Shown: piece after piece, positions 31,024 to 52,300 of the stretch
How the letters are laid out: each line of letters starts with the position of its first letter
How positions within the stretch are numbered: the first letter of the stretch is position 1
From: Rhodothermales bacterium
Lineage (GTDB): Bacteria > Bacteroidota > Rhodothermia > Rhodothermales > Bin80
Direction: 5' to 3'
NCBI GenBank assembly: GCA_951812585.1
Contig: OX638318.1
Span: 88,819-152,818, forward strand
Length of the DNA: 64,000 nucleotides
Translations under genes and position numbers: made by a program
Notes under the pieces: generated by a model
Seen by the model: the letters and a program-made list of their open reading frames with translations, nothing else
What the model was told of the DNA's origin: nothing
Databases searched by the model: none

Positions 31024-31108
31024 TGCCTATGCCCATGTGCTTGCTTCTCAGGGCAATTGGGTCTTGGGCACGGGCATCCACTGGATCGCACGGGACCAGT
31101 TACCGTTG
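31024..31108 (+). pseudogene. Degenerate second copy of the last ~28 codons of the helicase gene
   Basis: AYAHVLASQGNWVLGTGIHWIARDQLPL aligns collinearly with AYIHVLSSQGKTVLGAGIHWLRTGQITW (30877-30960). Confidence 0.6.
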
Positions 31109-31252
31109 AGGACGTTGCACCTTGAAGTGCGCTGCTGTACGCAGGTCTGCGGGGGTCAGTCCCTGAGCCAAGGACGCCGGCGCAACTGCGTGATTCCAAA
31201 GTGCCAAAACGTATATTGGCTGGCAACCTCGTGCAACACACACCAATCCGAA

Positions 31253-33720: not shown

Positions 33721-33904
33721 TAAATAAAGCCGGCGCTCAGCGCCGCACATGCCGGGCGCATGGACACGCGCCGCCATGCACCAAGTTGGCCGCAGCTGCA
33801 GCGTGCTCGAATCACTGGCGGCAGAAGCAGAGCTTGCGTGCGGTGGGCGTGGCGTGCGCTTTGAATCCGCAGTCACCAGTCGGATGATATCGACCACTGC
33901 GCCT

Positions 33905-33947
33905 AAAAAGCAAGACGCCCCGGCACCGATTACGGCACCGGGGCGTC
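33905..33947 (-). terminator. Rho-independent terminator of giant gene copy 1
   Basis: A 10-bp GC stem (gacgccccgg/ccggggcgtc) is followed on the minus strand by TTGCTTTTT, about 30 nt after the stop. Confidence 0.7.
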
Positions 33948-33977
33948 TCCCCTATACTCGCTTTGCGAGACGAACCA

Positions 33978-36900
33978 CTACTTGATCAGAACCATCCGAC
34001 CAGTCTCAATGTGCTTGCCGGAGGCACCCGTAGCGACTACTCGGTAGAAGTAGTTGCCCGAAGCCAGGCTTGTTGCATTGAGCTCGACCGTACGGCTGTG
34101 TCCAGCCTCCAGCTCCTGTGCTGGCAGCGTCATCACATTCCGCCCAAGCATGTCAAACACCGTGATGCTCACCTGTGCCGTCTCAGGCAGATCAAATTCA
34201 ATCCGCGTAGACGGGTTGAACGGATTCGGATAGTTGCCCAAGAGCGTAAACTCTGTCGGCAACTCCTCGGTCGCCGCAGCCGTGATGACCTGCGGGAAGA
34301 ACGTGCTACCGTCCATCCCCACGCCCATCATTGTGAGGCCCTCAGCAGCAGATTTGCCAACGCCAGACATGTTAAGCACCAGCGCCTTGTCCGCGTAGCC
34401 ATCCAACTCGAAACGGAAGACCTCGATCTGCGTGGCACCATCAGAGGTTAACACCTCGATGTTGTAGCCGCCCGGATCCAGCGACTTGTACTCGCCCACA
34501 TCGTCAAACGCAAAGTTGTTGATGAACAAGTCGTTGGTCACGCGCGTGTTGTCCACCGGATCCAGCGTGCGGATGTCAATCTCTCCCAATGCGCTCGCAC
34601 CGTGCACCACGTAAAAGTCCACCATGTTGCTGACGCTAGACGCCGTGCGCACATCCTCCCGGATGACCAGACTCACCACGCCGGCCGCCGCGTTACCATG
34701 CGCAATCACATGGTAGTGCTTGTTCCGGTCGAAGCGAACTGGCAGACTCAGTAGCGGCGCGGAGTTGTCCGGCGCAGCAGCAGCGACGATGTCCAGCGTG
34801 TGATTGCCTGCAGCAACGACCCCAAAGGCAAGCGCCGACTGGAACATGAAGTCGTCCGCGACCTTGTTGTCGTCGAGGTAAACATCCACCGTAGCTCCGG
34901 CTACGTTGTGAACGAACTGCACACGCGCCGTGCCTCCAAGGATCGGATCCGCACTGATCGGATTCTGCAGCATGTTCGAAGCAACACCTAGAATGCTGCA
35001 CATACCCAGTTCCAACCCCTCCTGGGTCAGGTTTGGAACGCCGTTGATGAAATCGTTCCCCCGGTTCGAGTCGTCATCCGTCGGGTCGTCGCTAACATCA
35101 TACACGCCAGCCAGACGTGGATTCGTTCCATCGCAGTCCCACTGAACAATACGAAGGCCAGTGATGTCAAAAACGTTCGGCAAATCGTCAGCAACAAGGC
35201 GTACGTTCGGGTCGTGTGCCGGCACAGCATCCAACTCCACCTTCCAGAACATGTCCGCCGCATTATCCAACAACAGATCCGTGCTGTTGCCATTGGCATC
35301 TACATGCCCCACTTCAAGGTTTATCCATTCCATCGAATCCGCCATTGCATCGTGCAGATAGCTCACCGATGCCGTGCCCGTGTTGCCCAGATCGTCAGGG
35401 AACTGCATGATCAGCGGGCGGAAGGAGTCTGGACCATCGCCCTTCGGACTGCCAACAGGGAAGATGTAGCCTGACGTTACTACGCCCCCGGTGGCATCGC
35501 CCTCCTCAATCGCGCGGCTCAGCGTCCCACTGAAGTAGCTGTTACGCGAACCCAACTGGATGACCGCATTGCCACTGCCCGCCGTGATGCGCCCCTCCAG
35601 GGAACTCTCGGGCGACGATTGCGTGATCATCCACCTGTACATTGGATCACCGCCGATGACGCCGTTCTTCAGCATAAGCCTGCCTTCTATGTTCTGACTG
35701 ACATCGCTCATCAGATTCAGCATGCCCGTATCACCGCCTGGATCAGAGGCTACCTCCACATTGCAGAACTGCGACATCGGGCCGCCCATCGATACGTTCG
35801 ACATGCCATTCGTGACAAACCGAACCGTGCCGTTCATGCCCAGCTCATTGGCCGGCATGCTCGCTTCGTCATTCCAGTCACTCGCAGCATCGAAAGCATA
35901 ATCCCCGTACACCGTCAATCCGATCGGTACTGTGTAGCCGTTAATTTCGGTCGATCCGGCGCAATCTCCGGCACTAAACTCGTAGGTAATCATGCTGTCG
36001 GTAGCAACGTGCATTCCGCCCACATGAAAATCGCCCATCGCCATATGAGATCCACCACCCAATGCCACCAGCGAATTGCTTGGCGTCGTCATCGAACCCT
36101 GCATGTAGTCACCAACCACCGACAAGACGTCCCCTGATACGTCCACTTGGCCATCTCCATCCAGCATCATGTCCCCGCCAATCATCAGCGTAACCTGCGG
36201 ATGGCCTCCGCCGCCTCTTCTTCTGCTGTAGTCGATCTCAGACCCGTTGCCAACGGATACGTCCCCACCAATCATCACGTAGTCCACACCCGGGCCAATC
36301 GCTAAGCTGTTGCTCGGCTTCTCGTCGCTGTTTTCTTCCAGCTCGTCGCTGTTTTCTTCCAGCGTAAGACTCGAAAACATCACCTTATCGGCGTTGTTCG
36401 GCGCAATTGGAGCGCTAGTAGTAGTACGAGTACCGCCGGCCAGCACAGTCAAGTGTCCATTGGAAAGAATCATTCCGGGAGGCCACATCCACTCAAGGGC
36501 TTCTTCGTCCGTTCCTGCATCGAGCGCGACCGAGCCTGCAAAGTGGATCATCCCCGCCGTAGCAGTCTTGGCAGCATTCGCTTTAGACGCCTCGTACTCT
36601 TTACGGGCCTCCGCAAACAGCACACGGTGCTCAGGCGTGTCTTCGTAGCGCATCTTGTCCATCGCATCCGCGAGGTCAAAGAACTCGCGGAAGGCCTCGC
36701 CTTTATCTGCGCAGGACACATCGCCCTCGGAGTCACACAGCACAGCGCCGGATGCAACGTCAATCGTGCCGCCGCGGGCTACAAGATCATTGCCCGCAAG
36801 GTCCACCGCGTTACCCTCGGTAACGTTCAGATTCCTGACAGCCGTATATCCTTCGCGCAGCGACAGGGTGACACTCATGCTGGCGGCGCAACTGTTGACA

Positions 36901-39467
36901 TTAACCGTTGTCGGGGTCCGAGCCGCGTCACTTGTGGCAGCCGCAACGGAGGGATACGTCGGAAGAAGATGCTCCGTCGAGGGGTCCATCGTACCCCTAA
37001 ACGTCAGGCTTCCGGTAGTCGCTTCGAATCCACCCTTCGCATCCACCATAGCGTCGCCTACAATCACGCTGCTTGGTGCGGTAAATGGAAAATCGCTTGT
37101 CACAACCAAGGTGCCCCGCTGCAGATTAAGCCTACCCGTGACATTGATACGGCTAGTCAACTCCACCTCGGTAGCCTTGGTGGCCAGGTAGATGTCAAGG
37201 GTTGACAGCGTGATGCCATTATACACTTCATGCCCCGTATCGAAGGAGCCCAAGCTGCCCGTGTACATTACCCTGCTTGGAGTGCGATACGCCCTGGACC
37301 CACTGTCCGTGGTGTATTCCATGTACGCGTTGATCCCCGACCCCCGGTTGATATCGCCCACAGTTCCTGGTGAGCGGTCGATGAGGAGATAGCCCTCATC
37401 TAGATTGAGCATACCGTTGGTGACGAGCTCGCCGCCCATGATGCTGACACCGTCCACAGACACCTCACTGCCCCCAAATATTAGCTCGTTCCTCGTATTC
37501 TTTTTGACTTCCAGCACCAGATTATCCAATGCCAGTGGCATGGGATTGGCGATGGTTTGCGACGTGGAGCCGCTGAATACGATTGCAGCGCCCGAGATGC
37601 CTGGTGCCCCGCTCGAGCAAACATTGGAATAGTCAGGCGAGACCGTACCGGTCGAACGCACCACCTGCTCTGTTGCATCCGTGAGGTCCAGCATACCCCC
37701 TTGCAACTCAAGTGTGCCATTGACCATGGCATGCACTATGGCCACCCCATAGACACCGCCCTGCACAGTCGTCGTCCCGGTCTTGATCGTCCGCCCGTTC
37801 TCGAGCGTCTTCTCGCTCTCGAAGTACGCGCCTCCGTAGCACTGGGGACTCTCTTCTATCTTGTACGTTCCTCCATCGTCCTCGTATCCATCCCCATCAA
37901 CAACCAACTTGTTGGCCATCATCGGCTTCGAGGCATTATTGAGCTCCACGGAGCCTCCTATCGCACCGCCGTTGAAATACACGCCCGTTGTGAGGCCGCG
38001 ACTCGGCAGAATATGCCCGGGAGTGATCGTGCTGTCGCCGGATACTGCATCCACTGCCACTAAGGCTGGATCCACTGTAGGGAGCCGGTTTCCAGAAAAC
38101 CACTTGTCCTCCATTCCGTAGCACTCCACAACAGGATCCGGCAGACTCCTGGTTGTTGTCGCATTTCCGGTTGACGGATCCGTGTAAACAGCAGTTGCAT
38201 CAACCGTGCCAATACCCGTAAGAACAGCGCCTGGCGCGGGGGCTCCCTGACCTTCAATAAATACGTCCCCGGAAATTGTCGTGCGGTCGAATTTCGTCTG
38301 CGCCATACCGCCGCTTCTGAAACTGCCTGAGACGTTGCTGGAGCTCACCCACAGTACGCCGGCCATATTCGTGGACTGGGCACCCGTGCCAAAGTTGGGA
38401 CTGATGCGCACGCCCGCTTGTGTGTCTTTCATCACATCCAAGGCGATCACTCCGTCCCCATTGATCCTGTATGCATGGGAATACTCATTCTCATTCTGCC
38501 ACCCCGAGTACATTGGATATACGTAGACGTAGTCAGCACCATCTTCTTCTGTCTTTATTTCCGTCAGCATCTCCGCCTCCACGCTGATATACAGAGTGCT
38601 GATTCCGTCCGACGTGACCATACCCGAAACGTTGGCTGACGGAAAACCGTCGGGGCCGCCGTAATCGAACATCTCGGCGTAGGCGCTGTCAGCTTCTCCC
38701 ATGGGCCGGGGCGCGTTGAGGTAGAGACCTTTGTCTCCGCTCAGCTCCAGCGTACCCATGACGTCAAGCTCGCCCCAAACCATGATGCCGTTGTCTGCCG
38801 TCCTAGCGGTATTGATAAACCCACCTGTGCATGTGCCCGTAACTTCGACCGTTTTACCTGAGGGGATCTCCAAGCGTTCAAAGTTTGGGCAGGTGCCGTC
38901 GCCGCCGGAGCCGTCGCTTACATCCATCGTCGTGTTCTGATCAATGACGATGTTGCCGCCAAGCGCCGTACGTGTCATATACTCGTTAAACACGCCATAA
39001 ACAGCCTGATCGGTTTCTGTGCCCGCTGGCGCGGTATCACCAAATGCGATCGTTCCAGACCTCAGGTAGAGCGTAGAGCGCTCATATTCCCGATAGAACG
39101 TCAACGAACCAGCGGTGAAGGTCAGGTTGCCCTGTATCGTCAAATCACCCTCGACCATGTGGTACTTGCTATTAGACGAGGTCTTATAAAGCAGCAGCGT
39201 TGTTTCGTCGTTTACAGTGAGGTGTTCCTGAACGAATACGCTGGAGCTTGTACCGCGGATGCGCACGGCTACGGTATCCTCATCCGCCATGCCTTGAGTT
39301 ATCGTCAAGCACGGCGCATCAAACGTGCAGTCCGCGGCAGTACCGTCCCCGTCGGCCGGATCAACGTAAGCAATGGTTTCTACTTGCCCAAACGCTGTCC
39401 CAGAAAACATCCCGCCAAGCAGCATCAGTGCCGCCACGGCAAGACCGAGAGTTGTAAAGTTCTTCAT
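33978..39467 (-). CDS. Giant T9SS-sorted surface protein, paralogue 1 (1,829 aa)
   Basis: ATG preceded by GGAGGGGG. Signal peptide LAVAALMLLGGMFSGTAFGQ. I recognise no domain in the first ~1,400 aa. Two DUF4397-like modules (ARVQFVHNVAGATVDVYLDD..., VDFYVVHGASALGEIDIR...) precede the T9SS tail (NYPNPFNPSTRIEFDL...GNYFYRV...MVLIK). Confidence 0.85.
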   Translation of the reverse strand: MKNFTTLGLAVAALMLLGGMFSGTAFGQVETIAYVDPADGDGTAADCTFDAPCLTITQGMADEDTVAVRIRGTSSSVFVQEHLTVNDETTLLLYKTSSNSKYHMVEGDLTIQGNLTFTAGSLTFYREYERSTLYLRSGTIAFGDTAPAGTETDQAVYGVFNEYMTRTALGGNIVIDQNTTMDVSDGSGGDGTCPNFERLEIPSGKTVEVTGTCTGGFINTARTADNGIMVWGELDVMGTLELSGDKGLYLNAPRPMGEADSAYAEMFDYGGPDGFPSANVSGMVTSDGISTLYISVEAEMLTEIKTEEDGADYVYVYPMYSGWQNENEYSHAYRINGDGVIALDVMKDTQAGVRISPNFGTGAQSTNMAGVLWVSSSNVSGSFRSGGMAQTKFDRTTISGDVFIEGQGAPAPGAVLTGIGTVDATAVYTDPSTGNATTTRSLPDPVVECYGMEDKWFSGNRLPTVDPALVAVDAVSGDSTITPGHILPSRGLTTGVYFNGGAIGGSVELNNASKPMMANKLVVDGDGYEDDGGTYKIEESPQCYGGAYFESEKTLENGRTIKTGTTTVQGGVYGVAIVHAMVNGTLELQGGMLDLTDATEQVVRSTGTVSPDYSNVCSSGAPGISGAAIVFSGSTSQTIANPMPLALDNLVLEVKKNTRNELIFGGSEVSVDGVSIMGGELVTNGMLNLDEGYLLIDRSPGTVGDINRGSGINAYMEYTTDSGSRAYRTPSRVMYTGSLGSFDTGHEVYNGITLSTLDIYLATKATEVELTSRINVTGRLNLQRGTLVVTSDFPFTAPSSVIVGDAMVDAKGGFEATTGSLTFRGTMDPSTEHLLPTYPSVAAATSDAARTPTTVNVNSCAASMSVTLSLREGYTAVRNLNVTEGNAVDLAGNDLVARGGTIDVASGAVLCDSEGDVSCADKGEAFREFFDLADAMDKMRYEDTPEHRVLFAEARKEYEASKANAAKTATAGMIHFAGSVALDAGTDEEALEWMWPPGMILSNGHLTVLAGGTRTTTSAPIAPNNADKVMFSSLTLEENSDELEENSDEKPSNSLAIGPGVDYVMIGGDVSVGNGSEIDYSRRRGGGGHPQVTLMIGGDMMLDGDGQVDVSGDVLSVVGDYMQGSMTTPSNSLVALGGGSHMAMGDFHVGGMHVATDSMITYEFSAGDCAGSTEINGYTVPIGLTVYGDYAFDAASDWNDEASMPANELGMNGTVRFVTNGMSNVSMGGPMSQFCNVEVASDPGGDTGMLNLMSDVSQNIEGRLMLKNGVIGGDPMYRWMITQSSPESSLEGRITAGSGNAVIQLGSRNSYFSGTLSRAIEEGDATGGVVTSGYIFPVGSPKGDGPDSFRPLIMQFPDDLGNTGTASVSYLHDAMADSMEWINLEVGHVDANGNSTDLLLDNAADMFWKVELDAVPAHDPNVRLVADDLPNVFDITGLRIVQWDCDGTNPRLAGVYDVSDDPTDDDSNRGNDFINGVPNLTQEGLELGMCSILGVASNMLQNPISADPILGGTARVQFVHNVAGATVDVYLDDNKVADDFMFQSALAFGVVAAGNHTLDIVAAAAPDNSAPLLSLPVRFDRNKHYHVIAHGNAAAGVVSLVIREDVRTASSVSNMVDFYVVHGASALGEIDIRTLDPVDNTRVTNDLFINNFAFDDVGEYKSLDPGGYNIEVLTSDGATQIEVFRFELDGYADKALVLNMSGVGKSAAEGLTMMGVGMDGSTFFPQVITAAATEELPTEFTLLGNYPNPFNPSTRIEFDLPETAQVSITVFDMLGRNVMTLPAQELEAGHSRTVELNATSLASGNYFYRVVATGASGKHIETGRMVLIK
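36321..36362 (-). repeat. In-frame 21-bp tandem duplication encoding LEENSDE x2
   Basis: ctcgtcgctgttttcttccag occurs twice. The same duplication is at 44511-44552 and 51723-51764 in copies 2 and 3. It lies at the upstream edge of the second hypervariable patch. Confidence 0.9.
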
Positions 39468-40245
39468 GTGTTCAGCCCCCTCCGGGGCGGTTGGTTAACA
39501 CAAACCAGGGCTGGCACCTCCAGCACACCGGCATTCAGGCGGTAGCAGCCCTGGCATTCGGGTCCTACCGCTACGTGTCTACTACACAGCAGTTCGCATG
39601 CATGCGTAACGTGCGCACGAAAAAAAAACCAGCACCCGAATCCTGCAATTCGGCTACGATTCCGTCACGCTTCGTAGCATCAACCCCGCCAAAACCGTTG
39701 GCGCACCAGCTGCAGGCAAGCCTTCGGCCCGGTCACAATGCTGACGCACTACGCGTAGCGCTACTGCAACAGCTAAATATAGGAATCCGCAACAACAATA
39801 CGCCACAGCGCGGATCATCGCACAAGGTATCAACGCACTGGCAATTCCGTTTCACAAGAAATCAACAATCAACAGTGATTAAGCCGCACGCTGCGCGCGC
39901 CGACGAGCACCTGAACGCTCCGTGTGCTGGGAACATTGGCCATCAGCGCGCAAACAGGGCCACTGCCGCGGGCCTATTGACTCTGCTGCTACTTTTCCGC
40001 ACGCTGCTTGCTGTGATGCGCGAACGTTGAAGCTTGTGCCGAAGAGGTTCCGCGTAGCACACAGGGAATCGCCATTCCCCTTGCGCAGCATTTGTGCCTT
40101 GCACAGATCCAGATAGCGCCACGCAGGCAAACGCGCAAAAAGGTGCGCCTGTGTGTGCGCTACCTTTCCTTCGTGAACCGCCTCAGCGGTGTGTGCCAAC
40201 AAAAATGAGACAAATTCGCCTCGGATTTAGTGTAGCGGATGGAAC

Positions 40246-41370
40246 TCATGTGGGCAGTAACTGGTCGCGTGTGACTACGAAGTTGCGGGACTGGCGGCCA
40301 TTGCTCTTGGCTACGAGCTTCACCGCAGCCTGGGGGTCGTCTGGCGGGTTGATCCACACCTTCCGCGGTGGCATGGGTACCTTGGGCATCCCCCGAATGA
40401 ATCGCTCCGGTTCTCGCGCATAGGCTTCCTGCATGACGCGCTGTCGCGCCTTCCATACCTCGCGCGTCTTGCCGTAGTGGATCGTCGAGGGATGCATCAG
40501 CGCAATCCCCGTGTGGTAGAATTCGTTGTTGTACCAATGGAAGAAGAGCCGCGCCCAGCTCCGGGCGTCCTCCAGGGAGCCGAAGCGCACCTCGTAAGTC
40601 CGGTGGTACTTCGCCGTGCGGAAGTGCGCCTCCGAATAGGGATGGTCGTTCGAGCGATACGGACGGCTGTAGGAGCCTTCCACTCCCAGCTCTGCCAACA
40701 GCTGCACATACGTCTTGCTTGTCATCACCGGGCCGCGATCCGAATGGAGGACCAGCTGGTCTCTTCGGACGTTTTGACGCGCGCATGTGGCCAGGACGAG
40801 ATCCTTGGCCAGCGCGGCAGACTCAAACGAGGCAAGGGTCCATCCCACCACGTAGCGGCTGAAGACATCCCGTAGCACGTAGCGCTTGAAGTGCAGGCCC
40901 TTAACCGGGCCCCGAAGCGTGGTGATGTCCCACGTCCAAAGCTCGTTCGGAGCTTGGGCCAACCACTCCGGCTTCGTGTACGGAGGATGTACGCGCTGAT
41001 TCCTGCGCTCGCGTATCGCCCTGTTTTCACTAAGGATACGATACATGGTGCGCCAGTGGCACAGGTAGGTGCCTTCATCCAGGAGCGTGGCCCAGATCTG
41101 GCGTGGCGGCAGGTCCACAAAACGCCTCGCGTTCAATATCGCCCGAATCTCCGCCCGGCGAGCTTCCGACAACCGTCGGCTGCTCTGGCGACGCCGCTTC
41201 GGCTGCTGCTGCGCCGCACGTTGACTTCTGTAATAGGAGGCGCGAGAGATCCCCACGTGGCGGCAGGCCGCCACCGTACCCAGAATCGGACGCAATGCCT
41301 TGACCCTCTCCCTCATCGCTACCCGGCCTCGCTCTCGCTGCTGATGCCAAAGAGCATGCAGACTTTTTTT
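40246..41370 (-). CDS. IS3 transposase OrfB (DDE integrase core; expressed by -1 frameshift from orfA)
   Basis: The slippery run of 8 A on the coding strand is at 41364-41371 (A AAA AAA G). OrfB contains LWTWDITTL..., HSDRGPVMTS and YSEAHFRTAKY..., a DD(35)E-type core. Confidence 0.8.
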   Translation of the reverse strand, partial: KKSLHALWHQQRERGRVAMRERVKALRPILGTVAACRHVGISRASYYRSQRAAQQQPKRRRQSSRRLSEARRAEIRAILNARRFVDLPPRQIWATLLDEGTYLCHWRTMYRILSENRAIRERRNQRVHPPYTKPEWLAQAPNELWTWDITTLRGPVKGLHFKRYVLRDVFSRYVVGWTLASFESAALAKDLVLATCARQNVRRDQLVLHSDRGPVMTSKTYVQLLAELGVEGSYSRPYRSNDHPYSEAHFRTAKYHRTYEVRFGSLEDARSWARLFFHWYNNEFYHTGIALMHPSTIHYGKTREVWKARQRVMQEAYAREPERFIRGMPKVPMPPRKVWINPPDDPQAAVKLVAKSNGRQSRNFVVTRDQLLPT

Positions 41371-41720
41371 TGAACCTCTATGATGGCCTCGGCCTTCTGA
41401 AGCTGCTGCCGGGACTGACCAAGCGCCTTGCGCAGCCGCCGAATCTCCTCGTCCTTGGCCAACAGTTCCTTCCCAGCCTGGGTCGAACCATAAAGCGCTC
41501 CATATTCGCGCTGCTTGCGCCACTGGGCCAGATGAGACGAGTAAAGGCCTTCCCGACGCAAAAGCGCACCGACCTCTCCAGGCTTGCTGCAGAGCTCGGC
41601 CTCGTCCAGAATGCGCATCTTGTAACTGGCCGTGAACCTGCGGCGCTTGGCCTTGGGAACCACTTCAGTCGGAGGGACCTCTGCCGTACCGGTCGTGTTG
41701 GAAGGGTAATCGGATTCCAT
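41319..41720 (-). CDS. IS3 transposase OrfA (HTH)
   Basis: MESDYPS...KRRRFTASYKMRILDEAE...LLRREGLYSSHLAQWRKQ is typical of IS3 OrfA. It ends just after the QKKV slippery site. Confidence 0.8.
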   Translation of the reverse strand: MESDYPSNTTGTAEVPPTEVVPKAKRRRFTASYKMRILDEAELCSKPGEVGALLRREGLYSSHLAQWRKQREYGALYGSTQAGKELLAKDEEIRRLRKALGQSRQQLQKAEAIIEVQKKVCMLFGISSESEAG

Positions 41721-42097
41721 GATTGAATAGGGGAAAATGATGGATTGGTTAAGCAAAATCGCCAGACCAGCCCTGCCGCTTGAACCCCAACGCGGCTACA
41801 CTATTAATGTATTGAACTGTCTCACTTCTTATTGGCACAGAGGGCAGTGACGACTAAGCGACGTCAAAGCGATATAAGGCAAGTGTAGAATTTATTGCCC
41901 CATCTTTGCTGCGTAAATAAAGCCGGCGCTCAGCGCCGCACATGCCGGGCGCATGGACACGCGCCGCCATGCACCAAGTTGGCCGCAGCTGCAGCGTGCT
42001 CGAATCACTGGCGGCAGAAGCAGAGCTTGCGTGCGGTGGGCGTGGCGTGCGCTTTGAATCCGCAGCCACCAGTCGGATGATATCGACCACTGCGCCT

Positions 42098-42140
42098 AAA
42101 AAGCAAGACGCCCCGGCACCGATTACGGCACCGGGGCGTC
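42098..42140 (-). terminator. Rho-independent terminator of giant gene copy 2
   Basis: Same hairpin and T tract as 33905-33947. Confidence 0.7.
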
Positions 42141-42170
42141 TCCCCTATACTCGCTTTGCGAGACGAATCA

Positions 42171-45100
42171 CTACTTGATCAGAACCATCCGACCAGTCTC
42201 AATGTGTTTGCCGGAGGCACCCGTAGCGACTACTCGGTAGAAGTAGTTGCCCGAAGCCAGGCTTGTTGCATTGAGCTCGACCGTACGGCTGTGTCCAGCC
42301 TCCAGCTCCTGTGCTGGCAGCGTCATCACATTCCGTCCAAGCATGTCAAACACCGTGATGCTCACCTGTGCCGTCTCAGGCAGATCAAATTCAATCCGCG
42401 TAGACGGGTTGAACGGATTCGGATAGTTGCCCAAGAGCGTAAACTCTGTCGGCAACTCCTCGGTCGCCGCAGCCGTGATGACCTGCGGGAAGAACGTGCT
42501 ACCGTCCATCCCCACGCCCATCATTGTGAGGCCCTCAGCAGCAGATTTGCCAACGCCAGACATGTTAAGCACCAGCGCCTTGTCCGCGTAGCCATCCAAC
42601 TCGAAACGGAAGACCTCGATCTGCGTGGCACCATCAGAGGTTAACACCTCGATGTTGTAGCCGCCCGGATCCAGCGACTTGTACTCGCCCACATCGTCAA
42701 ACGCAAAGTTGTTGATGAACAAGTCGTTGGTCACGCGCGTGTTGTCCACCGGATCCAGCGTGCGGATGTCAATCTCTCCCAATGCGCTCGCACCGTGCAC
42801 CACGTAAAAGTCCACCATGTTGCTGACGCTGGACGCCGTGCGCACATCCTCCCGGATGACCAGACTCACCACGCCGGCCGCCGCGTTACCATGCGCAATC
42901 ACATGGTAGTGCTTGTTCCGGTCGAAGCGAACTGGCAGACTCAGTAGCGGCGCGGAGTTGTCCGGCGCAGCAGCAGCGACGATGTCCAGCGTGTGATTGC
43001 CTGCAGCAACGACCCCAAAGGCAAGCGCCGACTGAAACATGAAGTCGTCCGCGACCTTGTTGTCGTCGAGGTAAACATCCACCGTAGCTCCGGCTACGTT
43101 GTGAATGAACTGCACACGCGCCGTGCCTCCAAGGATCGGATCCGCACTGATCGGATTCTGCAGCATGTTCGAAGCAACACCTAGAATGCTGCACATACCC
43201 AGTTCCAACCCCTCCTGGGTCAGGTTTGGAACGCCGTTGATGAAATCGTTCCCCCGGTATGAGTCGTCATCCGTCGGGTCGGCGCTAACATCATACACGC
43301 CAGCCAGACGTGGATTCGTTCCATCGCAGTCCCACTGAACAATACGAAGGCCCGTGATGTCAAAAACGTTCGGCAAATCGTCAGCAACAAGGCGTACGTT
43401 CGGGTCGTGTGCCGGCACAGCATCCAACTCCACCTTCCAGAACATGTCCGCCGCATTATCCAACAACAGATCCGTGCTGTTGCCATTGGCATCTACATGC
43501 CCCACTTCAAGGTTTATCCATTCCATCGAATCCGCTATTGCATCGTGCAGATAGCTCACCGATGCCATGCCCGTGTTGCCCAGATCGTCAGGGAACTGCA
43601 TGATCAGCGGGCGGAAGGAGTCTGGACCATCGCCCTTCGGACTGCCAACAGGGAAGATGTAGCCTGACGTTACTACGCCCCCGGTGGCATCGCCCTCCTC
43701 AATCGCGCGGCTCAGCGTCCCACTGAAGTAGCTGTTACGCGAACCCAACTGGATGACCGCATTGCCACTGCCCGCCGTGATGCGCCCCTCCAGGGAACTC
43801 TCGGGCGACGATTGCGTGATCATCCACCTGTACATTGGATCACCGCCGATGACGCCGTTCTTCAGCATAAGCCTGCCTTCTATGTTCTGACTGACATCGC
43901 TCATCAGATTCAGCATGCCCGTATCACCGCCTGGATCAGAGGCTACCTCCACATTGCAGAACTGCGACATCGGGCCGCCCATCGATACGTTCGACATGCC
44001 ATTCGTGACAAACCGAACCGTGCCGTTCATGCCCAGCTCATTGGCCGGCATGCTCGCTTCGTCATTCCAGTCACTCGCAGCATCGAAAGCATAATCCCCG
44101 TACACCGTCAATCCGATCGGTACTGTGTAGCCGTCAAGTTCGATCGATCCGGCGCAATCTTCGGCACTAAACTCGTAGGTAATCATGCTGTCGGTAGCAA
44201 CGTGCATTCCGCCCACATGAAAATCGCCCATCGCCATATGAGATCCACTAACCAAGTCCACCAACGAATTGCCTGGCGTCGTCATCGAACCCTGCATGTA
44301 GTCACCAGCCACCGACAAGACATCCCCGAATAAGTTCACCCTGCCATCTCCATCCAGCATCATGTCCCCGCCAATCATCAGCGTAGTCTGCGGATGGCCT
44401 CCGCCGCGGCCGCTTCTGACCAAGATCGAAGACCCGTTGCCAACGGATACGTCCCCGCCAATCATCACGTAGTCCACACCCGAGCTAATCGTTAAGACGT
44501 TGCTCGACTCCTCGTCGCTGTTTTCTTCCAGCTCGTCGCTGTTTTCTTCCAGCGTAAGACTCGAAAACATCACCTTATCGGCGTTGTTCGGCGCAATTGG
44601 AGCCGTAGTAGTAGAAAGAGTACCGCCGGCCTGCACAATCAAGTGTCCATTGGAAAGAATCATTCCGGGAGGCCACATCCACTCAAGGGCTTCTTCGTCC
44701 GTTCCTGCATCGAGCGCGACCGAGCCTGCAAAGTGGATCATCCCCGCCGTAGCAGTCTTGGCAGCGTTCGCTTTAGACGCCTCGTACTCTTTACGGGCCT
44801 CCGCAAACAGCACACGGTGCTCAGGCGTGTCTTCGTAGCGCATCTTGTCCATCGCATCCGCGAGGTCAAAGAACTCGCGGAAGGCCTCGCCTTTACCTGC
44901 GCAGGACACATCGCCCTCGGAGTCACACAGCACAGCGCCGGGTGCAACGTCAATCGTGCCGCCGCGGGCTACAAGATCATTGCCCGCAAGGTCCACCGCG
45001 TTACCCTCGGTAACGTTCAGATTCCTGACAGCCGTATATCCTTCGCGCAGCGACAGGGTGACACTCATGCTGGCGGCGCAACTGTTGACATTAACCGTTG

Positions 45101-47675
45101 TCGGGGTCCGAGCCGCGTCACTTGTGGCAGCCGCAACGGAGGGATACGTCGGAAGAAGATGCTCCGTCGAGGGGTCCATCGTACCCCTAAACGTCAGGCT
45201 TCCGGTAGTCGCTTCGAATCCACCCTTCGCATCCACCATAGCGTCGCCTACAATCACGCTGCTTGGTGCGGTAAATGGAAAATCGCTTGTCACAACCAAG
45301 GTGCCCCGCTGCAGATTAAGCCTATCCGTGACATTGATACGGCTAGTCAACTCCACCTCGGTAGCCTTGGTGGCCAGGTAGATGTCAAGGGTTGACAGCG
45401 TGATGCCATTATACACTTCATGCCCCGTATCGAAGGAGCCCAAGCTGCCCGTGTACATTACCCTGCTTGGAGTGCGATACGCCTTGGACCCACTGTCCGT
45501 GGTGTATTCCATGTACGCGTTGATCCCCGACCCCCGGTTGATATCGCCCACAGTTCCTGGTGAGCGGTCGATGAGGAGATAGCCCTCATCTAGATTGAGC
45601 ATACCGTTGGTGACGAGCTCGCCGCCCATGATGCTGACACCGTCCACAGACACCTCACTGCCCCCAAATATTAGCTCGTTCCTCGTATTCTTTTTGACTT
45701 CCAGCACCAGATTATCCAATGCCAGTGGCATGGGATTGGCGATGGTTTGCGACGTGGAGCCGCTGAATACGATTGCAGCGCCCGAGATGCCTGGTGCCCC
45801 GCTCGAGCAAACATTGGAACCGTCAGGCGAGACCGTACCGGTCGAACGCACCACCTGCTCTGTTGCAGCCGTGAGGTCCAGCATACCCCCTTGCAACTCA
45901 AGTGTGCCATTGACCATGGCATGCACTATGGCCACCCCATAGACACCGCCCTGCACAGTCGTCGTCCCGGTCTTGATCGTCCGCCCGTTCTCGAGCGTCT
46001 TCTCGCTCTCGAAGTACGCGCCTCCGTAGCACTGGGGACTCTCTTCTATCTTGTACGTTCCTCCATCGTCCTCGTATCCATCCCCATCAACAACCAACTT
46101 GTTGGCCATCATCGGCTTCGAGGCATTATTGAGCTCCACGGAGCCTCCTATCGCACCGCCGTTGAAATACACGCCCGTTGTGAGGCCGCGACTCGGCAGA
46201 ATATGCCCGGGAGTGATCGTGCTGTCGCCGGATACTGCATCCACTGCCACTAAGGCTGGATCCACTGTAGGGAGCCGGTTTCCAGAAAACCACTTGTCCT
46301 CCATTCCGTAGCACTCCACAACAGGATCCGGCAGACTCCTGGTTGTTGTCGCATTTCCGGTTGACGGATCCGTGTAAACAGCAGTTGCATCAACCGTGCC
46401 AATACCCGTAAGAACAGCGCCTGGCGCGGGGGCTCCCTGACCTTCAATAAATACGTCCCCGGAAATTGTCGTGCGGTCGAATTTCGTCTGCGCCATACCG
46501 CCGCTTCTGAAACTGCCTGAGACGTTGCTGGAGCTCACCCACAGTACGCCGGCCATATTCGTGGACTGGGCACCCGTGCCAAAGTTGGGACTGATGCGCA
46601 CGCCCGCTTGTGTGTCTTTCATCACATCCAAGGCGATCACTCCGTCCCCATTGATCCTGTATGCATGGGAATACTCATTCTCATTCTGCCACCCCGAGTA
46701 CATTGGATATACGTAGACGTAGTCAGCACCATCTTCTTCTGTCTTTATTTCCGTCAGCATCTCCGCCTCCACGCTGATATACAGAGAGCTGATTCCGTCC
46801 GACGTGACCATACCCGAAACGTTGGCTGACGGAAACCCGTTGGGGCCGCCGTAATCGAACATCTTGGCGTAGGCGCTGTCAGCTTCTCCCATGGGCCGGG
46901 GCGCGTTGAGGTAGAGACCTTTGTCTCCGCTCAGCTCCAGCGTACCCATGACGTCAAGCTCGCCCCAAACCATGATGCCGTTGTCTGCCGTCACAGGGGT
47001 GCCATCGCCCGGATTGATAAACCCACCTGTGCATGTGCCCGTAACTTCGACCGTTACACCTGAGGGGATCTCCAAGCGTTCAAAGTTTGGGCAGGTGCCG
47101 TCGCCGCCGGAGCCGTCGCTTACATCCATCGTCGTGTTCTGATCAATGACGATGTTGCCGCCAAGCGCCGTACGTGTCATGTACTCGTTAAACACGCCAT
47201 AATCAGTCTGATCGGAAAGGGTACCTATATCTGTGCCCGCTGGCGCGGTATCACCAAATGCGATCGTTCCAGACCTCAGGTAGAGCGTAGAGCGCTCATA
47301 TTCCCGATAGAACGTCAACGAACCACCGGTGAAGGTCAGGTTGCCCTGTATCGTCAAGTTACCCTCGACCATGTGGTACTCACTATTAGACGAGGTCTTA
47401 TAAAGCAGCAGCGTTATGTCGTCGCTTACAGAGAGGTGTTCCTGAACGAATACGCTGGAGCTTGTACCGCGGATGCGCACGGCTACGGTATCCGCACCCG
47501 AAACCGCCATGCCTTGAGTTATCGTCAAGCACGGCGCATCAAACGTACATGCCGTGGCAGTGCCATCCCCGTCGGCCGGATCAACGTAAGCTTGCCCAAA
47601 CGCTGTCCCAGAAAACATCCCGCCAAGCAGAACCAGCGCCGCCACGGCAAAACCGTGAGTTGTAACGTTCCTCAT
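42171..47675 (-). CDS. Giant T9SS-sorted surface protein, paralogue 2 (1,834 aa)
   Basis: Same architecture as copy 1 and an intact ORF. It differs mainly in two patches. Confidence 0.85.
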   Translation of the reverse strand: MRNVTTHGFAVAALVLLGGMFSGTAFGQAYVDPADGDGTATACTFDAPCLTITQGMAVSGADTVAVRIRGTSSSVFVQEHLSVSDDITLLLYKTSSNSEYHMVEGNLTIQGNLTFTGGSLTFYREYERSTLYLRSGTIAFGDTAPAGTDIGTLSDQTDYGVFNEYMTRTALGGNIVIDQNTTMDVSDGSGGDGTCPNFERLEIPSGVTVEVTGTCTGGFINPGDGTPVTADNGIMVWGELDVMGTLELSGDKGLYLNAPRPMGEADSAYAKMFDYGGPNGFPSANVSGMVTSDGISSLYISVEAEMLTEIKTEEDGADYVYVYPMYSGWQNENEYSHAYRINGDGVIALDVMKDTQAGVRISPNFGTGAQSTNMAGVLWVSSSNVSGSFRSGGMAQTKFDRTTISGDVFIEGQGAPAPGAVLTGIGTVDATAVYTDPSTGNATTTRSLPDPVVECYGMEDKWFSGNRLPTVDPALVAVDAVSGDSTITPGHILPSRGLTTGVYFNGGAIGGSVELNNASKPMMANKLVVDGDGYEDDGGTYKIEESPQCYGGAYFESEKTLENGRTIKTGTTTVQGGVYGVAIVHAMVNGTLELQGGMLDLTAATEQVVRSTGTVSPDGSNVCSSGAPGISGAAIVFSGSTSQTIANPMPLALDNLVLEVKKNTRNELIFGGSEVSVDGVSIMGGELVTNGMLNLDEGYLLIDRSPGTVGDINRGSGINAYMEYTTDSGSKAYRTPSRVMYTGSLGSFDTGHEVYNGITLSTLDIYLATKATEVELTSRINVTDRLNLQRGTLVVTSDFPFTAPSSVIVGDAMVDAKGGFEATTGSLTFRGTMDPSTEHLLPTYPSVAAATSDAARTPTTVNVNSCAASMSVTLSLREGYTAVRNLNVTEGNAVDLAGNDLVARGGTIDVAPGAVLCDSEGDVSCAGKGEAFREFFDLADAMDKMRYEDTPEHRVLFAEARKEYEASKANAAKTATAGMIHFAGSVALDAGTDEEALEWMWPPGMILSNGHLIVQAGGTLSTTTAPIAPNNADKVMFSSLTLEENSDELEENSDEESSNVLTISSGVDYVMIGGDVSVGNGSSILVRSGRGGGHPQTTLMIGGDMMLDGDGRVNLFGDVLSVAGDYMQGSMTTPGNSLVDLVSGSHMAMGDFHVGGMHVATDSMITYEFSAEDCAGSIELDGYTVPIGLTVYGDYAFDAASDWNDEASMPANELGMNGTVRFVTNGMSNVSMGGPMSQFCNVEVASDPGGDTGMLNLMSDVSQNIEGRLMLKNGVIGGDPMYRWMITQSSPESSLEGRITAGSGNAVIQLGSRNSYFSGTLSRAIEEGDATGGVVTSGYIFPVGSPKGDGPDSFRPLIMQFPDDLGNTGMASVSYLHDAIADSMEWINLEVGHVDANGNSTDLLLDNAADMFWKVELDAVPAHDPNVRLVADDLPNVFDITGLRIVQWDCDGTNPRLAGVYDVSADPTDDDSYRGNDFINGVPNLTQEGLELGMCSILGVASNMLQNPISADPILGGTARVQFIHNVAGATVDVYLDDNKVADDFMFQSALAFGVVAAGNHTLDIVAAAAPDNSAPLLSLPVRFDRNKHYHVIAHGNAAAGVVSLVIREDVRTASSVSNMVDFYVVHGASALGEIDIRTLDPVDNTRVTNDLFINNFAFDDVGEYKSLDPGGYNIEVLTSDGATQIEVFRFELDGYADKALVLNMSGVGKSAAEGLTMMGVGMDGSTFFPQVITAAATEELPTEFTLLGNYPNPFNPSTRIEFDLPETAQVSITVFDMLGRNVMTLPAQELEAGHSRTVELNATSLASGNYFYRVVATGASGKHIETGRMVLIK

Positions 47676-49312: not shown

Positions 49313-49355
49313 AAAAAGCAAGACGCCCCGGCACCGATTACGGCACCGGGGCGTC
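49313..49355 (-). terminator. Rho-independent terminator of giant gene copy 3
   Basis: Same hairpin and T tract as 33905-33947. Confidence 0.7.
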
Positions 49356-49385: not shown

Positions 49386-52300
49386 CTACTTGATCAGAAC
49401 CATCCGACCAGTCTCAATGTGTTTGCCGGAGGCACCCGTAGCGACTACTCGGTAGAAGTAGTTGCCCGAAGCCAGGCTTGTTGCATTGAGCTCGACCGTA
49501 CGGCTGTGTCCAGCCTCCAGCTCCTGTGCTGGCAGCGTCATCACATTCCGTCCAAGCATGTCAAACACCGTGATGCTCACCTGTGCCGTCTCAGGCAGAT
49601 CAAATTCAATCCGCGTAGACGGGTTGAACGGATTCGGATAGTTGCCCAAGAGCGTAAACTCTGTCGGCAACTCCTCGGTCGCCGCAGCCGTGATGACCTG
49701 CGGGAAGAACGTGCTACCGTCCATCCCCACGCCCATCATTGTGAGGCCCTCAGCAGCAGATTTGCCAACGCCAGACATGTTAAGCACCAGCGCCTTGTCC
49801 GCGTAGCCATCCAACTCGAAACGGAAGACCTCGATCTGCGTGGCACCATCAGAGGTTAACACCTCGATGTTGTAGCCGCCCGGATCCAGCGACTTGTACT
49901 CGCCCACATCGTCAAACGCAAAGTTGTTGATGAACAAGTCGTTGGTCACGCGCGTGTTGTCCACCGGATCCAGCGTGCGGATGTCAATCTCTCCCAATGC
50001 GCTCGCACCGTGCACCACGTAAAAGTCCACCATGTTGCTGACGCTGGACGCCGTGCGCACATCCTCCCGGATGACCAGACTCACCACGCCGGCCGCCGCG
50101 TTACCATGCGCAATCACATGGTAGTGCTTGTTCCGGTCGAAGCGAACTGGCAGACTCAGTAGCGGCGCGGAGTTGTCCGGCGCAGCAGCAGCGACGATGT
50201 CCAGCGTGTGATTGCCTGCAGCAACGACCCCAAAGGCAAGCGCCGACTGAAACATGAAGTCGTCCGCGACCTTGTTGTCGTCGAGGTAAACATCCACCGT
50301 AGCTCCGGCTACGTTGTGAATGAACTGCACACGCGCCGTGCCTCCAAGGATCGGATCCGCACTGATCGGATTCTGCAGCATGTTCGAAGCAACACCTAGA
50401 ATGCTGCACATACCCAGTTCCAACCCCTCCTGGGTCAGGTTTGGAACGCCGTTGATGAAATCGTTCCCCCGGTATGAGTCGTCATCCGTCGGGTCGGCGC
50501 TAACATCATACACGCCAGCCAGACGTGGATTCGTTCCATCGCAGTCCCACTGAACAATACGAAGGCCCGTGATGTCAAAAACGTTCGGCAAATCGTCAGC
50601 AACAAGGCGTACGTTCGGGTCGTGTGCCGGCACAGCATCCAACTCCACCTTCCAGAACATGTCCGCCGCATTATCCAACAACAGATCCGTGCTGTTGCCA
50701 TTGGCATCTACATGCCCCACTTCAAGGTTTATCCATTCCATCGAATCCGCTATTGCATCGTGCAGATAGCTCACCGATGCCATGCCCGTGTTGCCCAGAT
50801 CGTCAGGGAACTGCATGATCAGCGGGCGGAAGGAGTCTGGACCATCGCCCTTCGGACTGCCAACAGGGAAGATGTAGCCTGACGTTACTACGCCCCCGGT
50901 GGCATCGCCCTCCTCAATCGCGCGGCTCAGCGTCCCACTGAAGTAGCTGTTACGCGAACCCAGCTGGATGACCGCACTGTCACTGCCCGCCGTGATGCGC
51001 CCCTCCAGGGAATTCTCGGGCGACGGTTGCGTGATCATCCACCTGTACATTGGATCACCGCCGATGACGCCGTTCTTCAGCATAAGCCTGCCTTCTATGT
51101 TCTGACTGACATCGCTCATCAGATTCAGCATGCCCGTATCACCACCTGGATCAGAGGCTACCTCCACATTGCAGAACTGCGACATCGGGCCGCCCATCGA
51201 TACGTTCGACATGCCATTCGTGACAAACCGAACCGTGCCGTCCATGCCCAGCTCATTGGCCGGCATGCTCGCCTTGTCATTCCAGTCACTCGCAGCATCG
51301 AAAGCATAATCCCCGTACACCGTCAATCCGATCGGTACTGTGTAGCCGTTAAGTTCGGTCGATCCGGCGCAATCTCCGGCACCAAACTCGTAGGTAATCA
51401 TGCTGTCGGTAGCAACGTGCATTCCGCCCACATGAAAATCGCCCATCGCCATATGAGATCCACCACCCAATGCCACCAGCGAATTGCCTGGCGTCGTCAT
51501 CGAACCCTGCATGTAGTCACCAGCTACCGACAAGACATGACCGGATACGATCACCCTGCCATCTCCATCCAGCATCATGTCCCCGCCAATCATCAGCGTA
51601 GTCTGCGGATGGCCTCCGGCGCGGCTTCTGACCCAGATCGAAGACCCGTTGCCAACGGATACGTCCCCGCCAATCATCACGTAGTCCACACCCAAGCCAG
51701 TCGTTAAGCTGTTGCTCGGCTTCTCGTCGCTGTTTTCTTCCAGCTCGTCGCTGTTTTCTTCCAGCGTAAGACTCGAAAACATCACCTTATCGGCGTTGTT
51801 CGGCGCAATTGGAGCCGTAGTAGTAGAAAGAGTACCGCCGGCCTGCACAATCAAGTGTCCATTGGAAAGAATCATTCCGGGAGGCCACATCCACTCAAGG
51901 GCTTCTTCGTCCGTTCCTGCATCGAGCGCGACCGAGCCTGCAAAGTGGATCATCCCCGCCGTAGCAGTCTTGGCAGCATTCGCTTTAGACGCCTCGTACT
52001 CTTTACGGGCCTCCGCAAACAGCACACGGTGCTCAGGCGTGTCTTCGTAGCGCATCTTGTCCATCGCATCCGCGAGGTCAAAGAACTCGCGGAAGGCCTC
52101 GCCTTTATCTGCGCAGGACACATCGCCCTCGGAGTCACACAGCACAGCGCCGGATGCAACGTCAATCGTGCCGCCGCGGGCTACAAGATCATTGCCCGCA
52201 AGGTCCACCGCGTTACCCTCGGTAACGTTCAGATTCCTGACAGCCGTATATCCTTCGCGCAGCGACAGGGTGACACTCATGCTGGCGGCGCAACTGTTGA

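What the first reader, a model, noticed from the sequence alone, without database searches (positions are those of the whole stretch)
38568..39467. Hypervariable, indel-rich N-terminal ~300 residues in otherwise near-identical paralogues
Differences between the three proteins are concentrated in short patches just after the signal peptide. Examples, in the order copy 1 / copy 2 / copy 3: QVETIAY / QAY / QESIVY; MADEDT / MAVSGADT / MEVSGADT; TVNDETT / SVSDDIT / TVREGIT; GDTAPAGTETDQAVY / GDTAPAGTDIGTLSDQTDY / GINVPPVGAGGPAQADY; GGFINTARTADNG / GGFINPGDGTPVTADNG / GDNFIDTDTTTDNS. The flanking blocks (YREYERSTLYLRSGTI, NEYMTRTALGGNIVIDQNTTMDVSDGSGGDGTCPNFERL) are invariant. Equivalent DNA lies at about 46775-47675 and 53975-54875. 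Loop-like replacement and length variation on a conserved scaffold is the pattern expected for exposed, diversifying epitopes or receptor-binding loops.
Basis: seen in the sequence. Interest (0 to 1): 0.75.

Follow-up and report, generated by a model that had tools for sequence, protein, structure and literature searches.

The report
Three surface-protein genes with variable loops
Three tandem copies of a giant secreted surface protein in a Rhodothermales-like bacterium are almost identical except in two zones where short loop segments differ; this looks like recombination among gene copies, a known way for bacteria to vary surface proteins, and positive selection is not shown.

Summary
All quoted peptide variants, invariant blocks and coordinates are correct. 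The genes (33978-39467, 42171-47675, 49386-54875, minus strand) encode 1829-1834 aa proteins with a signal peptide, DUF4397 and a type IX secretion (T9SS) sorting tail. The copies are not "otherwise near-identical". A second zone (aa ~1016-1225) is as divergent (85-90% identity) as the N-terminal zone (84-88%). The signal peptide and upstream non-coding DNA also differ.

The loop reading is supported. Variable positions fall fourfold more often in the insertion/deletion hotspots of 30-40%-identical relatives, avoid predicted strands, and sit in low-confidence loops of a mostly beta-strand model.

The "diversifying selection" reading is not shown. dN/dS is about 1 (0.6-2.0). Synonymous divergence in the zone is 20-30 times that of the core. 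The copy that stands apart changes along the unit (chi-square p=4e-15). A metagenome allele carries the same loop variants in a new combination.

Best explanation: gene conversion homogenises most of the gene, while mosaic short-tract recombination keeps loop variants in the head furthest from the anchor. An adaptive role is inferred only. There is no sign of diversity-generating retroelements or silent cassettes. This is a new member of a known kind.

The parts
33978..39467 (-). Copy 1 gene, 1829 aa: signal peptide, beta-strand-rich N-terminal head, long uncharacterised middle, DUF4397 (aa 1514-1633), T9SS type A sorting tail (aa 1746-1814)
   Evidence: ORF; translation. Pfam DUF4397 70.2 bits (cut-off 30.6) and Por_Secre_tail 34.4 bits (cut-off 27). 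TIGR04183 33.3 bits (cut-off 23).
42171..47675 (-). Copy 2 gene, 1834 aa
   Evidence: The repeat unit is 97.2% identical to the copy 1 unit.
49386..54875 (-). Copy 3 gene, 1829 aa (identical to database protein P0001)
38430..39467 (-). N-terminal variable zone of copy 1 (aa 1 to ~345); equivalents are about 46620-47675 (copy 2) and 53832-54875 (copy 3)
   Evidence: About 100 difference events in 1124 aligned bases, or 0.089 per site, against 0.005 per site in the core. Identity 84-88%.
38988..39041 (-). Loop patch 4 of copy 1 (aa 143-160, GDTAPAGTETDQAVY), the most divergent patch, with 6-12 nt indels between copies
   Evidence: pLDDT is below 50 for residues 147-158. The patch coincides with the most indel-rich columns of family alignment A1.
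38784..38825 (-). Loop patch 5 of copy 1 (aa 215-228, GGFINTARTADNG), with a 12-nt insertion in copy 2
   Evidence: pLDDT is below 50 for residues 218-223. The family alignment has large insertions at this position.
35793..36422 (-).
   Evidence: 38 variable columns with indels. 54 events in 600 bases, or 0.090 per site. Identity 85-90%. Metagenome fragment P0013 carries further new variants at the same patches.
39468..40099 (-). Shared upstream non-coding part of the repeat unit for copy 1; copy 2 is 47676-48486 and copy 3 is 54876-55713
   Evidence: Self-BLAST. 23 difference events in 596 bases. These include changes in T-tract length, in copy number of a 7-bp repeat, and a 16-bp duplication.
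40246..41523 (-). Insertion-sequence transposase (rve integrase core) in the spacer between copy 1 and copy 2
   Evidence: Pfam rve at 9.5e-19. The copy 1 / copy 2 spacer is about 1 kb longer than the copy 2 / copy 3 spacer. A 96-bp segment, 40092-40186, matches 48967-49062.

Best explanation
The locus is a tandem three-gene family encoding a giant acidic cell-surface protein exported by the type IX secretion system. It evolves in concert. Gene conversion between the copies keeps about 85% of each 5.5-kb gene, and part of the flanks, nearly identical. Two zones stay diversified: the N-terminal ~340 residues and residues ~1016-1225.

Within the N-terminal zone, differences sit mainly in loops between strands of a beta-strand-rich, probably beta-solenoid-like, domain. 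They consist of short multi-base replacements and in-frame indels that behave as exchangeable mini-cassettes. Each copy, and a related environmental allele, carries a different combination.

Shown here: the anatomy, the two zones, the loop location, the raised synonymous divergence, the mosaic relationships, and the lack of signatures of known programmed diversification.

Inferred:
(a) Short-tract recombination, between copies and with diverged alleles in the population, supplies and reshuffles the patches.
(b) Type A sorting tails anchor cargo by the C-terminus, as established for Porphyromonas gingivalis cargo. The N-terminal head would then be the end furthest from the cell.
(c) Holding three head variants at once may broaden ligand binding or blunt recognition by phages or predators.
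For: Anatomy:
- Three same-strand units are about 97.2% identical, including 630-840 bp upstream and about 260 bp downstream.
- The only sequence-family matches are DUF4397 and the T9SS tail.
- pI is 4.2.

Zones:
- Events per site are 0.089 (N zone), 0.005 (core), 0.090 (mid zone), 0.010 (C-terminal part) and 0.039 (upstream non-coding).
- The zone pattern reflects history, not constraint. Among 30-46%-identical relatives, aa 351-1000 is no better conserved than aa 1-350 (majority fraction 0.41-0.56 in both), yet the paralogues differ at only 9 columns there.
- dS is 0.04-0.07 in the N zone against 0.002 or less in the core (Fisher p from 2e-4 to 3e-7).

Mosaic:
- The copy that stands apart changes along the unit: chi-square 105, 16 df, p=4e-15; 87 runs observed against 143.5 expected.
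- An ungapped 20-nt tract in copy 2 carries three synonymous and three non-synonymous changes.
- Metagenome allele L001/P0010 combines copy 3-type, copy 2-type and copy 1-type patches in blocks and has private indels.

Loops.

No programmed system:
- The substitution spectrum is not adenine-specific, with 71 transitions and 60 transversions.
- There are no extra partial copies in the window.

The triplication is lineage-specific: relatives P0014, P0016 and P0017 show no second copy in the 2-10 kb held on each side.
Against: - Adaptive value is not shown. dN/dS is about 1 and ranges 0.56-2.0 depending on pair and partition, from small counts.
- Within the zone, synonymous differences do not lie significantly closer to non-synonymous ones than random (p=0.22 and 0.10). 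The 'imported micro-tract' idea therefore rests on the zone-level dS excess, on a loop-versus-scaffold dS excess significant in two of three pairs, and on single examples.
- The metagenome allele sits on a 5.8-kb scaffold that ends at the repeat borders. It could be an assembly chimera of several copies.
- The fold assignment is weak. Mean pLDDT is 66 from an 8-sequence alignment. No Foldseek match is significant; the best are E=0.38 against PDB and E=0.014 against viral models.
- Expression of the three genes, surface anchoring and the presence of T9SS machinery were not tested.
Confidence: 0.55

Rival explanations
1. Neutral by-product. The loops are weakly constrained, so they accumulate substitutions and indels. 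Once diverged, local heterology blocks gene conversion, so these spots stay different while the rest is homogenised. The three-variant state brings no functional benefit.
For: - dN/dS is about 1, with dS and dN raised together.
- The signal peptide and upstream non-coding DNA also differ.
- The variable positions are those that tolerate indels across the family.
Against: - The event density in the coding N zone is 2.3 times that of the adjacent non-coding upstream DNA (0.089 against 0.039 per site, p=7e-5).
- aa 351-1000 is as free to vary across the family yet is fully homogenised.
- All three 5.5-kb reading frames are intact, and every indel is in frame.
Confidence: 0.3
2. A very recent triplication was followed by new mutations driven by positive selection on exposed epitopes or receptor-binding loops.
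For: - Patches lie in loops.
- Non-synonymous differences outnumber synonymous ones 60:18 in the N zone and 43:10 in the mid zone.
- The N zone has more events than the flanking non-coding DNA.
Against: - Synonymous divergence is 20-30 times higher in the zone than in the core.
- The closest pair of copies changes along the unit.
- Identical variants recur in other combinations in the metagenome allele.
- dN/dS does not exceed 1 significantly.
Confidence: 0.1
3. Programmed hypervariation by a dedicated machine: a diversity-generating retroelement, silent-cassette gene conversion as in pilE/pilS, vlsE or tprK, or a site-specific shufflon.
For: - Variation is sharply localised, with conserved flanks.
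- An imperfect inverted repeat flanks about 580 bp upstream of copies 2 and 3.
Against: - There is no adenine bias.
- There is no template repeat or partial cassette in the 64-kb window.
- No reverse transcriptase or site-specific recombinase turned up among the ORFs scanned around the array; the only hit of that kind is an insertion-sequence transposase.
- Differences also occur outside the patches.
Confidence: 0.03
4. Assembly artefact. The three 'copies' are strain variants of one or two genes wrongly laid out in tandem.
For: Repeats of 6.4-6.7 kb at 97% identity are hard to assemble. The related metagenome scaffold ends at the repeat borders.
Against: - The source record is one 3.2-Mb contig.
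- The two spacers differ in structure, with an insertion-sequence insertion and a deletion in one.
- The three units have unique outer junctions.
- All differences keep the reading frame.
Confidence: 0.02

Closest known systems
Neisseria Opa outer-membrane protein multigene family (comparison from my own knowledge, not tested here)
   Same: Several full-length paralogues in one genome share a conserved framework, with hypervariable segments at surface loops. Recombination and gene conversion between loci and strains reassort the hypervariable segments into mosaics.
   Different: Opa proteins are small 8-stranded beta-barrels of a host-restricted pathogen, scattered around the genome, and phase-variable through a pentamer repeat. 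Here the proteins are 1830-aa T9SS cargo in tandem, in an environmental Rhodothermales-like bacterium. No phase-variation repeat has been shown. There is no sequence or fold relationship.
Concerted evolution of surface-protein paralogues by gene conversion, as in Helicobacter pylori babA/babB/sabA and the Treponema pallidum tpr genes (from my own knowledge)
   Same: Near-identical blocks are kept by conversion, discrete divergent regions persist, and which pair is closest changes along the gene.
   Different: These are different protein families and secretion routes. They act against a vertebrate immune system, which has no counterpart here.
T9SS type A cargo proteins: Porphyromonas gingivalis gingipains, Flavobacterium SprB/RemA-type adhesins
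   Same: An N-terminal signal peptide plus a C-terminal Por_Secre_tail above the curated cut-offs, very large size, and a repetitive beta-rich build.
   Different: There is no similarity outside the tail. The rest belongs to a rare family: only 15 representatives with E<=0.001 among 1.84 billion.
Right-handed beta-helix proteins: pectate lyases, phage tailspikes, autotransporter passenger domains
   Same: The model is a long run of short strands, and every weak Foldseek hit is of this class. The N-terminal motif 'YVDPADGDG...PCLTITQG' recalls the cap of such domains (my own recollection).
   Different: No match is significant: E is 0.014 or worse and TM-scores are 0.1-0.28. There is no Pfam beta-helix hit at E<=1 and no PDB sequence hit.

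Membership tests
T9SS type A cargo | C-terminal sorting domain (Pfam PF18962 / TIGR04183) above the curated cut-off | tested here: met
   PF18962 scores 34.4 bits against a cut-off of 27 at aa 1746-1814. TIGR04183 scores 33.3 bits against 23.
T9SS type A cargo | N-terminal Sec signal peptide | tested here: met
   Read from the sequence: M-K/R-N, a hydrophobic run LAVAALMLLGGMF, then SGTAFG|Q. No predictor was run.
T9SS type A cargo | The host encodes the T9SS machinery (PorU/PorV/SprA and others) and the cargo is found on the surface | not testable with these tools
   Only the 64-kb window is available. A neighbouring GH16 gene also carries the tail, which suggests the system is in use.
DUF4397-containing proteins | Pfam PF14344 above the gathering score | tested here: met
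   70.2 bits against 30.6 at aa 1514-1633. All full-length relatives carry it.
Right-handed parallel beta-helix superfamily | Sequence-profile or significant structural match to a beta-helix domain | tested here: inconclusive
   No Pfam hit and no PDB sequence hit. Foldseek hits are all beta-helix proteins, but E is 0.38 or worse against PDB and 0.014 or worse against viral models. The model has pTM 0.72 and mean pLDDT 66.
Diversity-generating retroelement target | Adenine-specific substitutions relative to a nearby template repeat, plus a reverse transcriptase | tested here: not met
   Bases involved in substitutions: A 79, G 71, C 60, T 52; 71 transitions and 60 transversions. There is no additional repeat of the variable regions in the window. 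No reverse transcriptase turned up among the ORFs scanned around the array.
Silent-cassette antigenic variation (pilE/pilS, vlsE, tprK type) | An archive of promoterless partial donor cassettes matching the variable regions | tested here: not met
   tblastn and short-word blastn of both zones and the patches against the window find only the three full genes. The rest of the genome was not available.
Multigene surface-protein family with reassorting hypervariable loops (works like Opa; no homology claimed) | Several intact paralogues, a conserved framework, discrete hypervariable segments at loops, and mosaic combinations of those segments | tested here: met
   Intact ORFs; loop location; mosaic relationships; a reshuffled allele (with the caveat that it may be an assembly chimera).
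Phase-variable invertible promoter (inverton) | Inverted repeats flanking the promoter, plus a nearby site-specific recombinase, with both orientations observed | tested here: inconclusive
   A 25-nt imperfect inverted repeat with perfect 8-nt and 7-nt ends flanks about 580 bp upstream of copies 2 and 3 but not copy 1. No recombinase was found and no alternative orientation is available.

The most novel reading that the evidence does not exclude
A free-living Rhodothermales-like bacterium runs something like antigenic variation with no immune system to evade. It keeps a tandem set of giant T9SS-anchored proteins whose distal head loops, and a second mid-protein zone, are kept diverse. Short-tract recombination among copies and strains reshuffles them, under pressure from phages or predators that use the protein as a receptor. 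A 39%-identical relative on a 255-kb circular, gene-dense, mostly unannotatable contig (possibly a jumbo phage or megaplasmid) would then suggest that mobile elements also trade in this protein.
Probability: 0.2. Interest if true: 0.6.

Novelty: new member of a known kind. Interest (0 to 1): 0.35.

Why it matters
If the loop diversity is maintained by selection, this would be a clear, compact example of surface-protein diversification by paralogue recombination in an environmental T9SS-bearing bacterium. It would also point to the exposed, functionally important end of a rare uncharacterised protein family: only 15 representatives with E<=0.001 among 1.84 billion. That would give a concrete target for phage-receptor or adhesion experiments. 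If the diversity is neutral, the locus is still a tidy case of concerted evolution with conversion-resistant spots, but of limited wider interest.

Tried and rejected
- Word-indexed homology searches were nearly useless for this protein. The full-length query found only its own cluster and tail-only hits. The N-terminal query found nothing, not even the protein itself. The alignment query returned one fragment.
- The exhaustive HMMER search was what revealed the small family.
- No further alleles were found in species-representative genomes, JGI metagenomes or IMG/VR.
- The single-sequence AlphaFold run was uninformative, with mean pLDDT 39.
- Foldseek gave no significant hit against PDB or viral models, and profile search found no PDB sequence match.
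- The diversity-generating retroelement idea was rejected on the substitution spectrum, and the silent-cassette idea on the absence of extra copies.
- The test for synonymous changes clustering with non-synonymous ones inside the zones was not significant.
- There was no Rfam family in or between the genes, no sigma-70-type promoter match upstream, and no terminal inverted repeats for the insertion sequence.
- The literature holds nothing on this family or on DUF4397 in T9SS cargo.
- The intergenic ORFs between copies look spurious.
Full report
**What is there**

The window carries three same-strand (minus) ORFs of 1829, 1834 and 1829 codons at 33978-39467, 42171-47675 and 49386-54875 (translations).

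- Self-BLAST shows the repeated unit is longer than the gene. It spans 33721-40099, 41845-48486 and 49060-55713 at about 97.2% identity. That adds 630-840 bp upstream and about 260 bp downstream of each gene.
- Each protein starts with a typical signal peptide (read from the sequence).
- The only family matches are DUF4397 at aa 1514-1633 and a type IX secretion sorting tail at aa 1746-1814. Both are above the curated cut-offs.
- The proteins are strongly acidic, with pI 4.2.
- An insertion-sequence transposase lies between copies 1 and 2. Conjugative type IV secretion genes start just beyond copy 3. A GH16 enzyme with the same secretion tail lies on the other side.
- Housekeeping genes elsewhere in the window show this is chromosomal DNA. 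The adenylosuccinate synthetase is at best 63% identical to Rhodothermales genomes. The host is therefore a Rhodothermales-like bacterium with no close sequenced representative in that collection.

**Checking the observation**

| Region (aa) | Variable alignment columns | Amino-acid identity between copies |
|---|---|---|
| 1-350 / 1-340 | 68 of 124 | 84-88% |
| 351-1000 / 341-1015 | 9 | 99.1% |
| 1001-1250 / 1016-1225 | 38 | 85-90% |
| 1251-end / 1226-end | 9 | 98.5-99.3% |

Column counts come and identities; the two calls used slightly different bin edges, shown in that order.

- A second zone at aa ~1016-1225 is just as divergent and has its own in-frame indels.
- The signal peptide differs at five positions.
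- The shared upstream non-coding DNA carries 23 differences, including repeat-number changes.

**Are the patches loops?**

- An exhaustive HMMER search of 1.84 billion representatives found only 15 relatives. Several are full-length at 30-40% identity.
- Indel zones were defined from the three full-length distant relatives only. Paralogue-variable columns are enriched fourfold in those zones (Fisher p=9e-7) and depleted at family-conserved columns (p=3e-4).
- AlphaFold with that alignment gave pTM 0.72 and mean pLDDT 66. The model is a long succession of short strands.
- Variable residues are depleted in strands (odds ratio 0.46, p=0.013) and enriched in low-confidence segments (odds ratio 3.0, p=7e-4).
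- Foldseek found nothing significant. Every weak hit in PDB and in viral models is a beta-helix or beta-solenoid protein: polygalacturonases, tailspikes, autotransporter passengers.
I could not test 'one pole', because the tools return no coordinates.

**Is it diversifying selection?**

The evidence does not show it.

- Nei-Gojobori dN/dS is 0.96-1.32 for the mature N zone and 1.07-1.77 for the mid zone.
- In loop columns defined independently from the family, dN/dS is 0.56-1.59. Counts are small.
- Synonymous divergence is itself concentrated in the zones. dS is 0.04-0.07 in the N zone against 0.002 or less in aa 341-1015 (Fisher p from 2e-4 to 3e-7). Selection on amino acids cannot raise dS.
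- The homogeneous core is not under tighter long-term constraint. Among distant relatives, aa 351-1000 is no better conserved than aa 1-350.

The zone pattern is therefore a record of recombination history. Most of the unit has been homogenised recently and the two zones have not, or they have received diverged sequence.

**Evidence for a mosaic**

- With three sequences, every variable site marks one copy as the one that stands apart. That copy changes in blocks along the unit: chi-square 105 on 16 df, p=4e-15; 87 runs observed against 143.5 expected, with none of 10,000 permutations as low.
  - Copy 2 stands apart upstream.
  - Copy 3 stands apart in most of the N zone and in alignment columns 4701-5100.
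  - Copy 1 stands apart in the first half of the mid zone and in the last 1.7 kb.
- At fine scale, one ungapped 20-nt tract in copy 2 has three synonymous and three non-synonymous changes amid identical flanks.
- A metagenome allele (P0010/P0012, scaffold L001) carries the same patch variants in a new order. It has the copy 3-type QESIVY and TVREGIT, the copy 2-type MAVSGADT and GTDIGTLSDQTDY, and the copy 1-type FTAGSLTF and GGFINTARTADNG. It also has private indels.
- A more distant fragment (P0013) shows further new variants at the same mid-zone patches.

Caveats:
- The metagenome scaffold ends at the repeat borders and could be a chimera.
- Inside the zones, synonymous changes do not lie significantly closer to non-synonymous ones than random.
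- dS is higher in loop than in scaffold columns in two of three pairs.

**What it is not**

- The substitution spectrum has no adenine bias, which argues against a diversity-generating retroelement.
- There are no partial donor cassettes in the window.
- There is no Rfam element.
- The only recombinase-like gene found is an insertion-sequence transposase.
- Relatives P0014, P0016 and P0017 show no second copy in the 2-10 kb held on each side of them, in unrelated contexts, so the triplication is lineage-specific.

**Most likely mechanism**

This is a tandem family under concerted evolution. Loop-encoding mini-segments of the N-terminal head and a second mid-protein zone stay diverse and are reshuffled by short-tract recombination. 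Type A sorting tails attach cargo by the C-terminus (established for P. gingivalis cargo; my own knowledge). The variable head would then be the end furthest from the cell.

That makes ligand binding or recognition by phages and predators a plausible target of diversification. The event density in the coding N zone is 2.3 times that of the adjacent non-coding DNA (p=7e-5), which mildly favours this view. It remains an inference. A neutral account fits most of the data, and I give it about 0.3: weakly constrained loops that resist conversion once they have diverged.

**Comparison and novelty**

The behaviour resembles multigene surface-protein families whose hypervariable loops reassort by recombination, such as Neisseria Opa, Helicobacter Bab/Sab and Treponema Tpr. 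There is no homology to any of them.

The protein is a T9SS type A cargo and carries DUF4397. The rest belongs to a rare, unstudied family, and I found no literature on it. This is a new member of a known kind of phenomenon. It is moderately interesting mainly because the setting is environmental rather than host-associated.

Noticed in passing
L085 (ENA ERZ25072076 contig ctg243866_27x_c, 255,036 bp), gene at 10001-14803: A 39%-identical family member (P0015, 1600 aa, with DUF4397 and the T9SS tail) lies on a 255-kb contig whose name suffix suggests it is circular. Dozens of small same-strand ORFs without Pfam hits surround it. One (9077-9400) matches an Acb2/Tad1-like anti-defence hairpin and PHROG 2428 (E=3.5e-20). 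It looks like a jumbo phage or megaplasmid carrying a host-type surface protein.
   Followed up: partly
window 47851-47875 / 48454-48478 and 55069-55093 / 55681-55705: An imperfect 25-nt inverted repeat (GCAATTCG-10 nt-CGTCACG, with perfect 8-nt and 7-nt ends) flanks about 580 bp of the upstream region of copies 2 and 3. The outer arm is missing upstream of copy 1, where homology ends at 40099. It could be an invertible promoter segment or a regulator site. No recombinase was seen.
   Followed up: partly
window 39468-40099, 47676-48300, 54876-55520: The upstream polymorphisms between copies are repeat-like. The T-tract is GG+T9 in two copies and G+T8 in the third. TGTTGAT occurs twice or once. 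Copy 3 has a 16-bp tandem duplication (TGCGAACTGCCATGCG). Copy 2 alone has changes in a TATATTTAG-like box. These might alter expression of individual copies.
   Followed up: no
window 40092-41844: The copy 1 / copy 2 spacer holds an insertion element (rve transposase, 40246-41523). It lacks about 670 bp present in the copy 2 / copy 3 spacer, but keeps that spacer's last 96 bp (40092-40186 matches 48967-49062, 99% identical). No terminal inverted repeats were found.
   Followed up: partly
window 56036-63802: Conjugative type IV secretion genes abut copy 3: a TraG/VirD4 coupling protein, TrbI, CagX/TrbG and a TraG-like P-loop protein. GC is 0.62-0.64 there against 0.56-0.57 in the three genes. 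The array may sit at the edge of an integrative conjugative element.
   Followed up: no
window 16979-22291 (minus strand): A 1770-aa ORF with many cadherin and Big_9 repeats contains a run of 24 consecutive glycines. It is another giant surface-type protein, unrelated to the three paralogues.
   Followed up: no
window 36290-36331 (copy 1 aa 1046-1059) and equivalents: A 7-residue tandem repeat, LEENSDE x2, is present in all three copies but only once in the metagenome allele (a 21-nt deletion). This is a slippage-type length polymorphism at the start of the mid variable zone.
   Followed up: no
window 31037-33094 (plus strand): A GH16 glycoside hydrolase with CBM6/35 modules and its own T9SS sorting tail lies next to copy 1. 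This suggests the host actively uses T9SS.
   Followed up: no
window 47676-49385: About 1.7 kb between copies 2 and 3 has no convincing gene. All its ORFs are Arg/Cys-rich and look spurious, and there is no Pfam hit for the 164-aa ORF at 48504-48998.
   Followed up: partly
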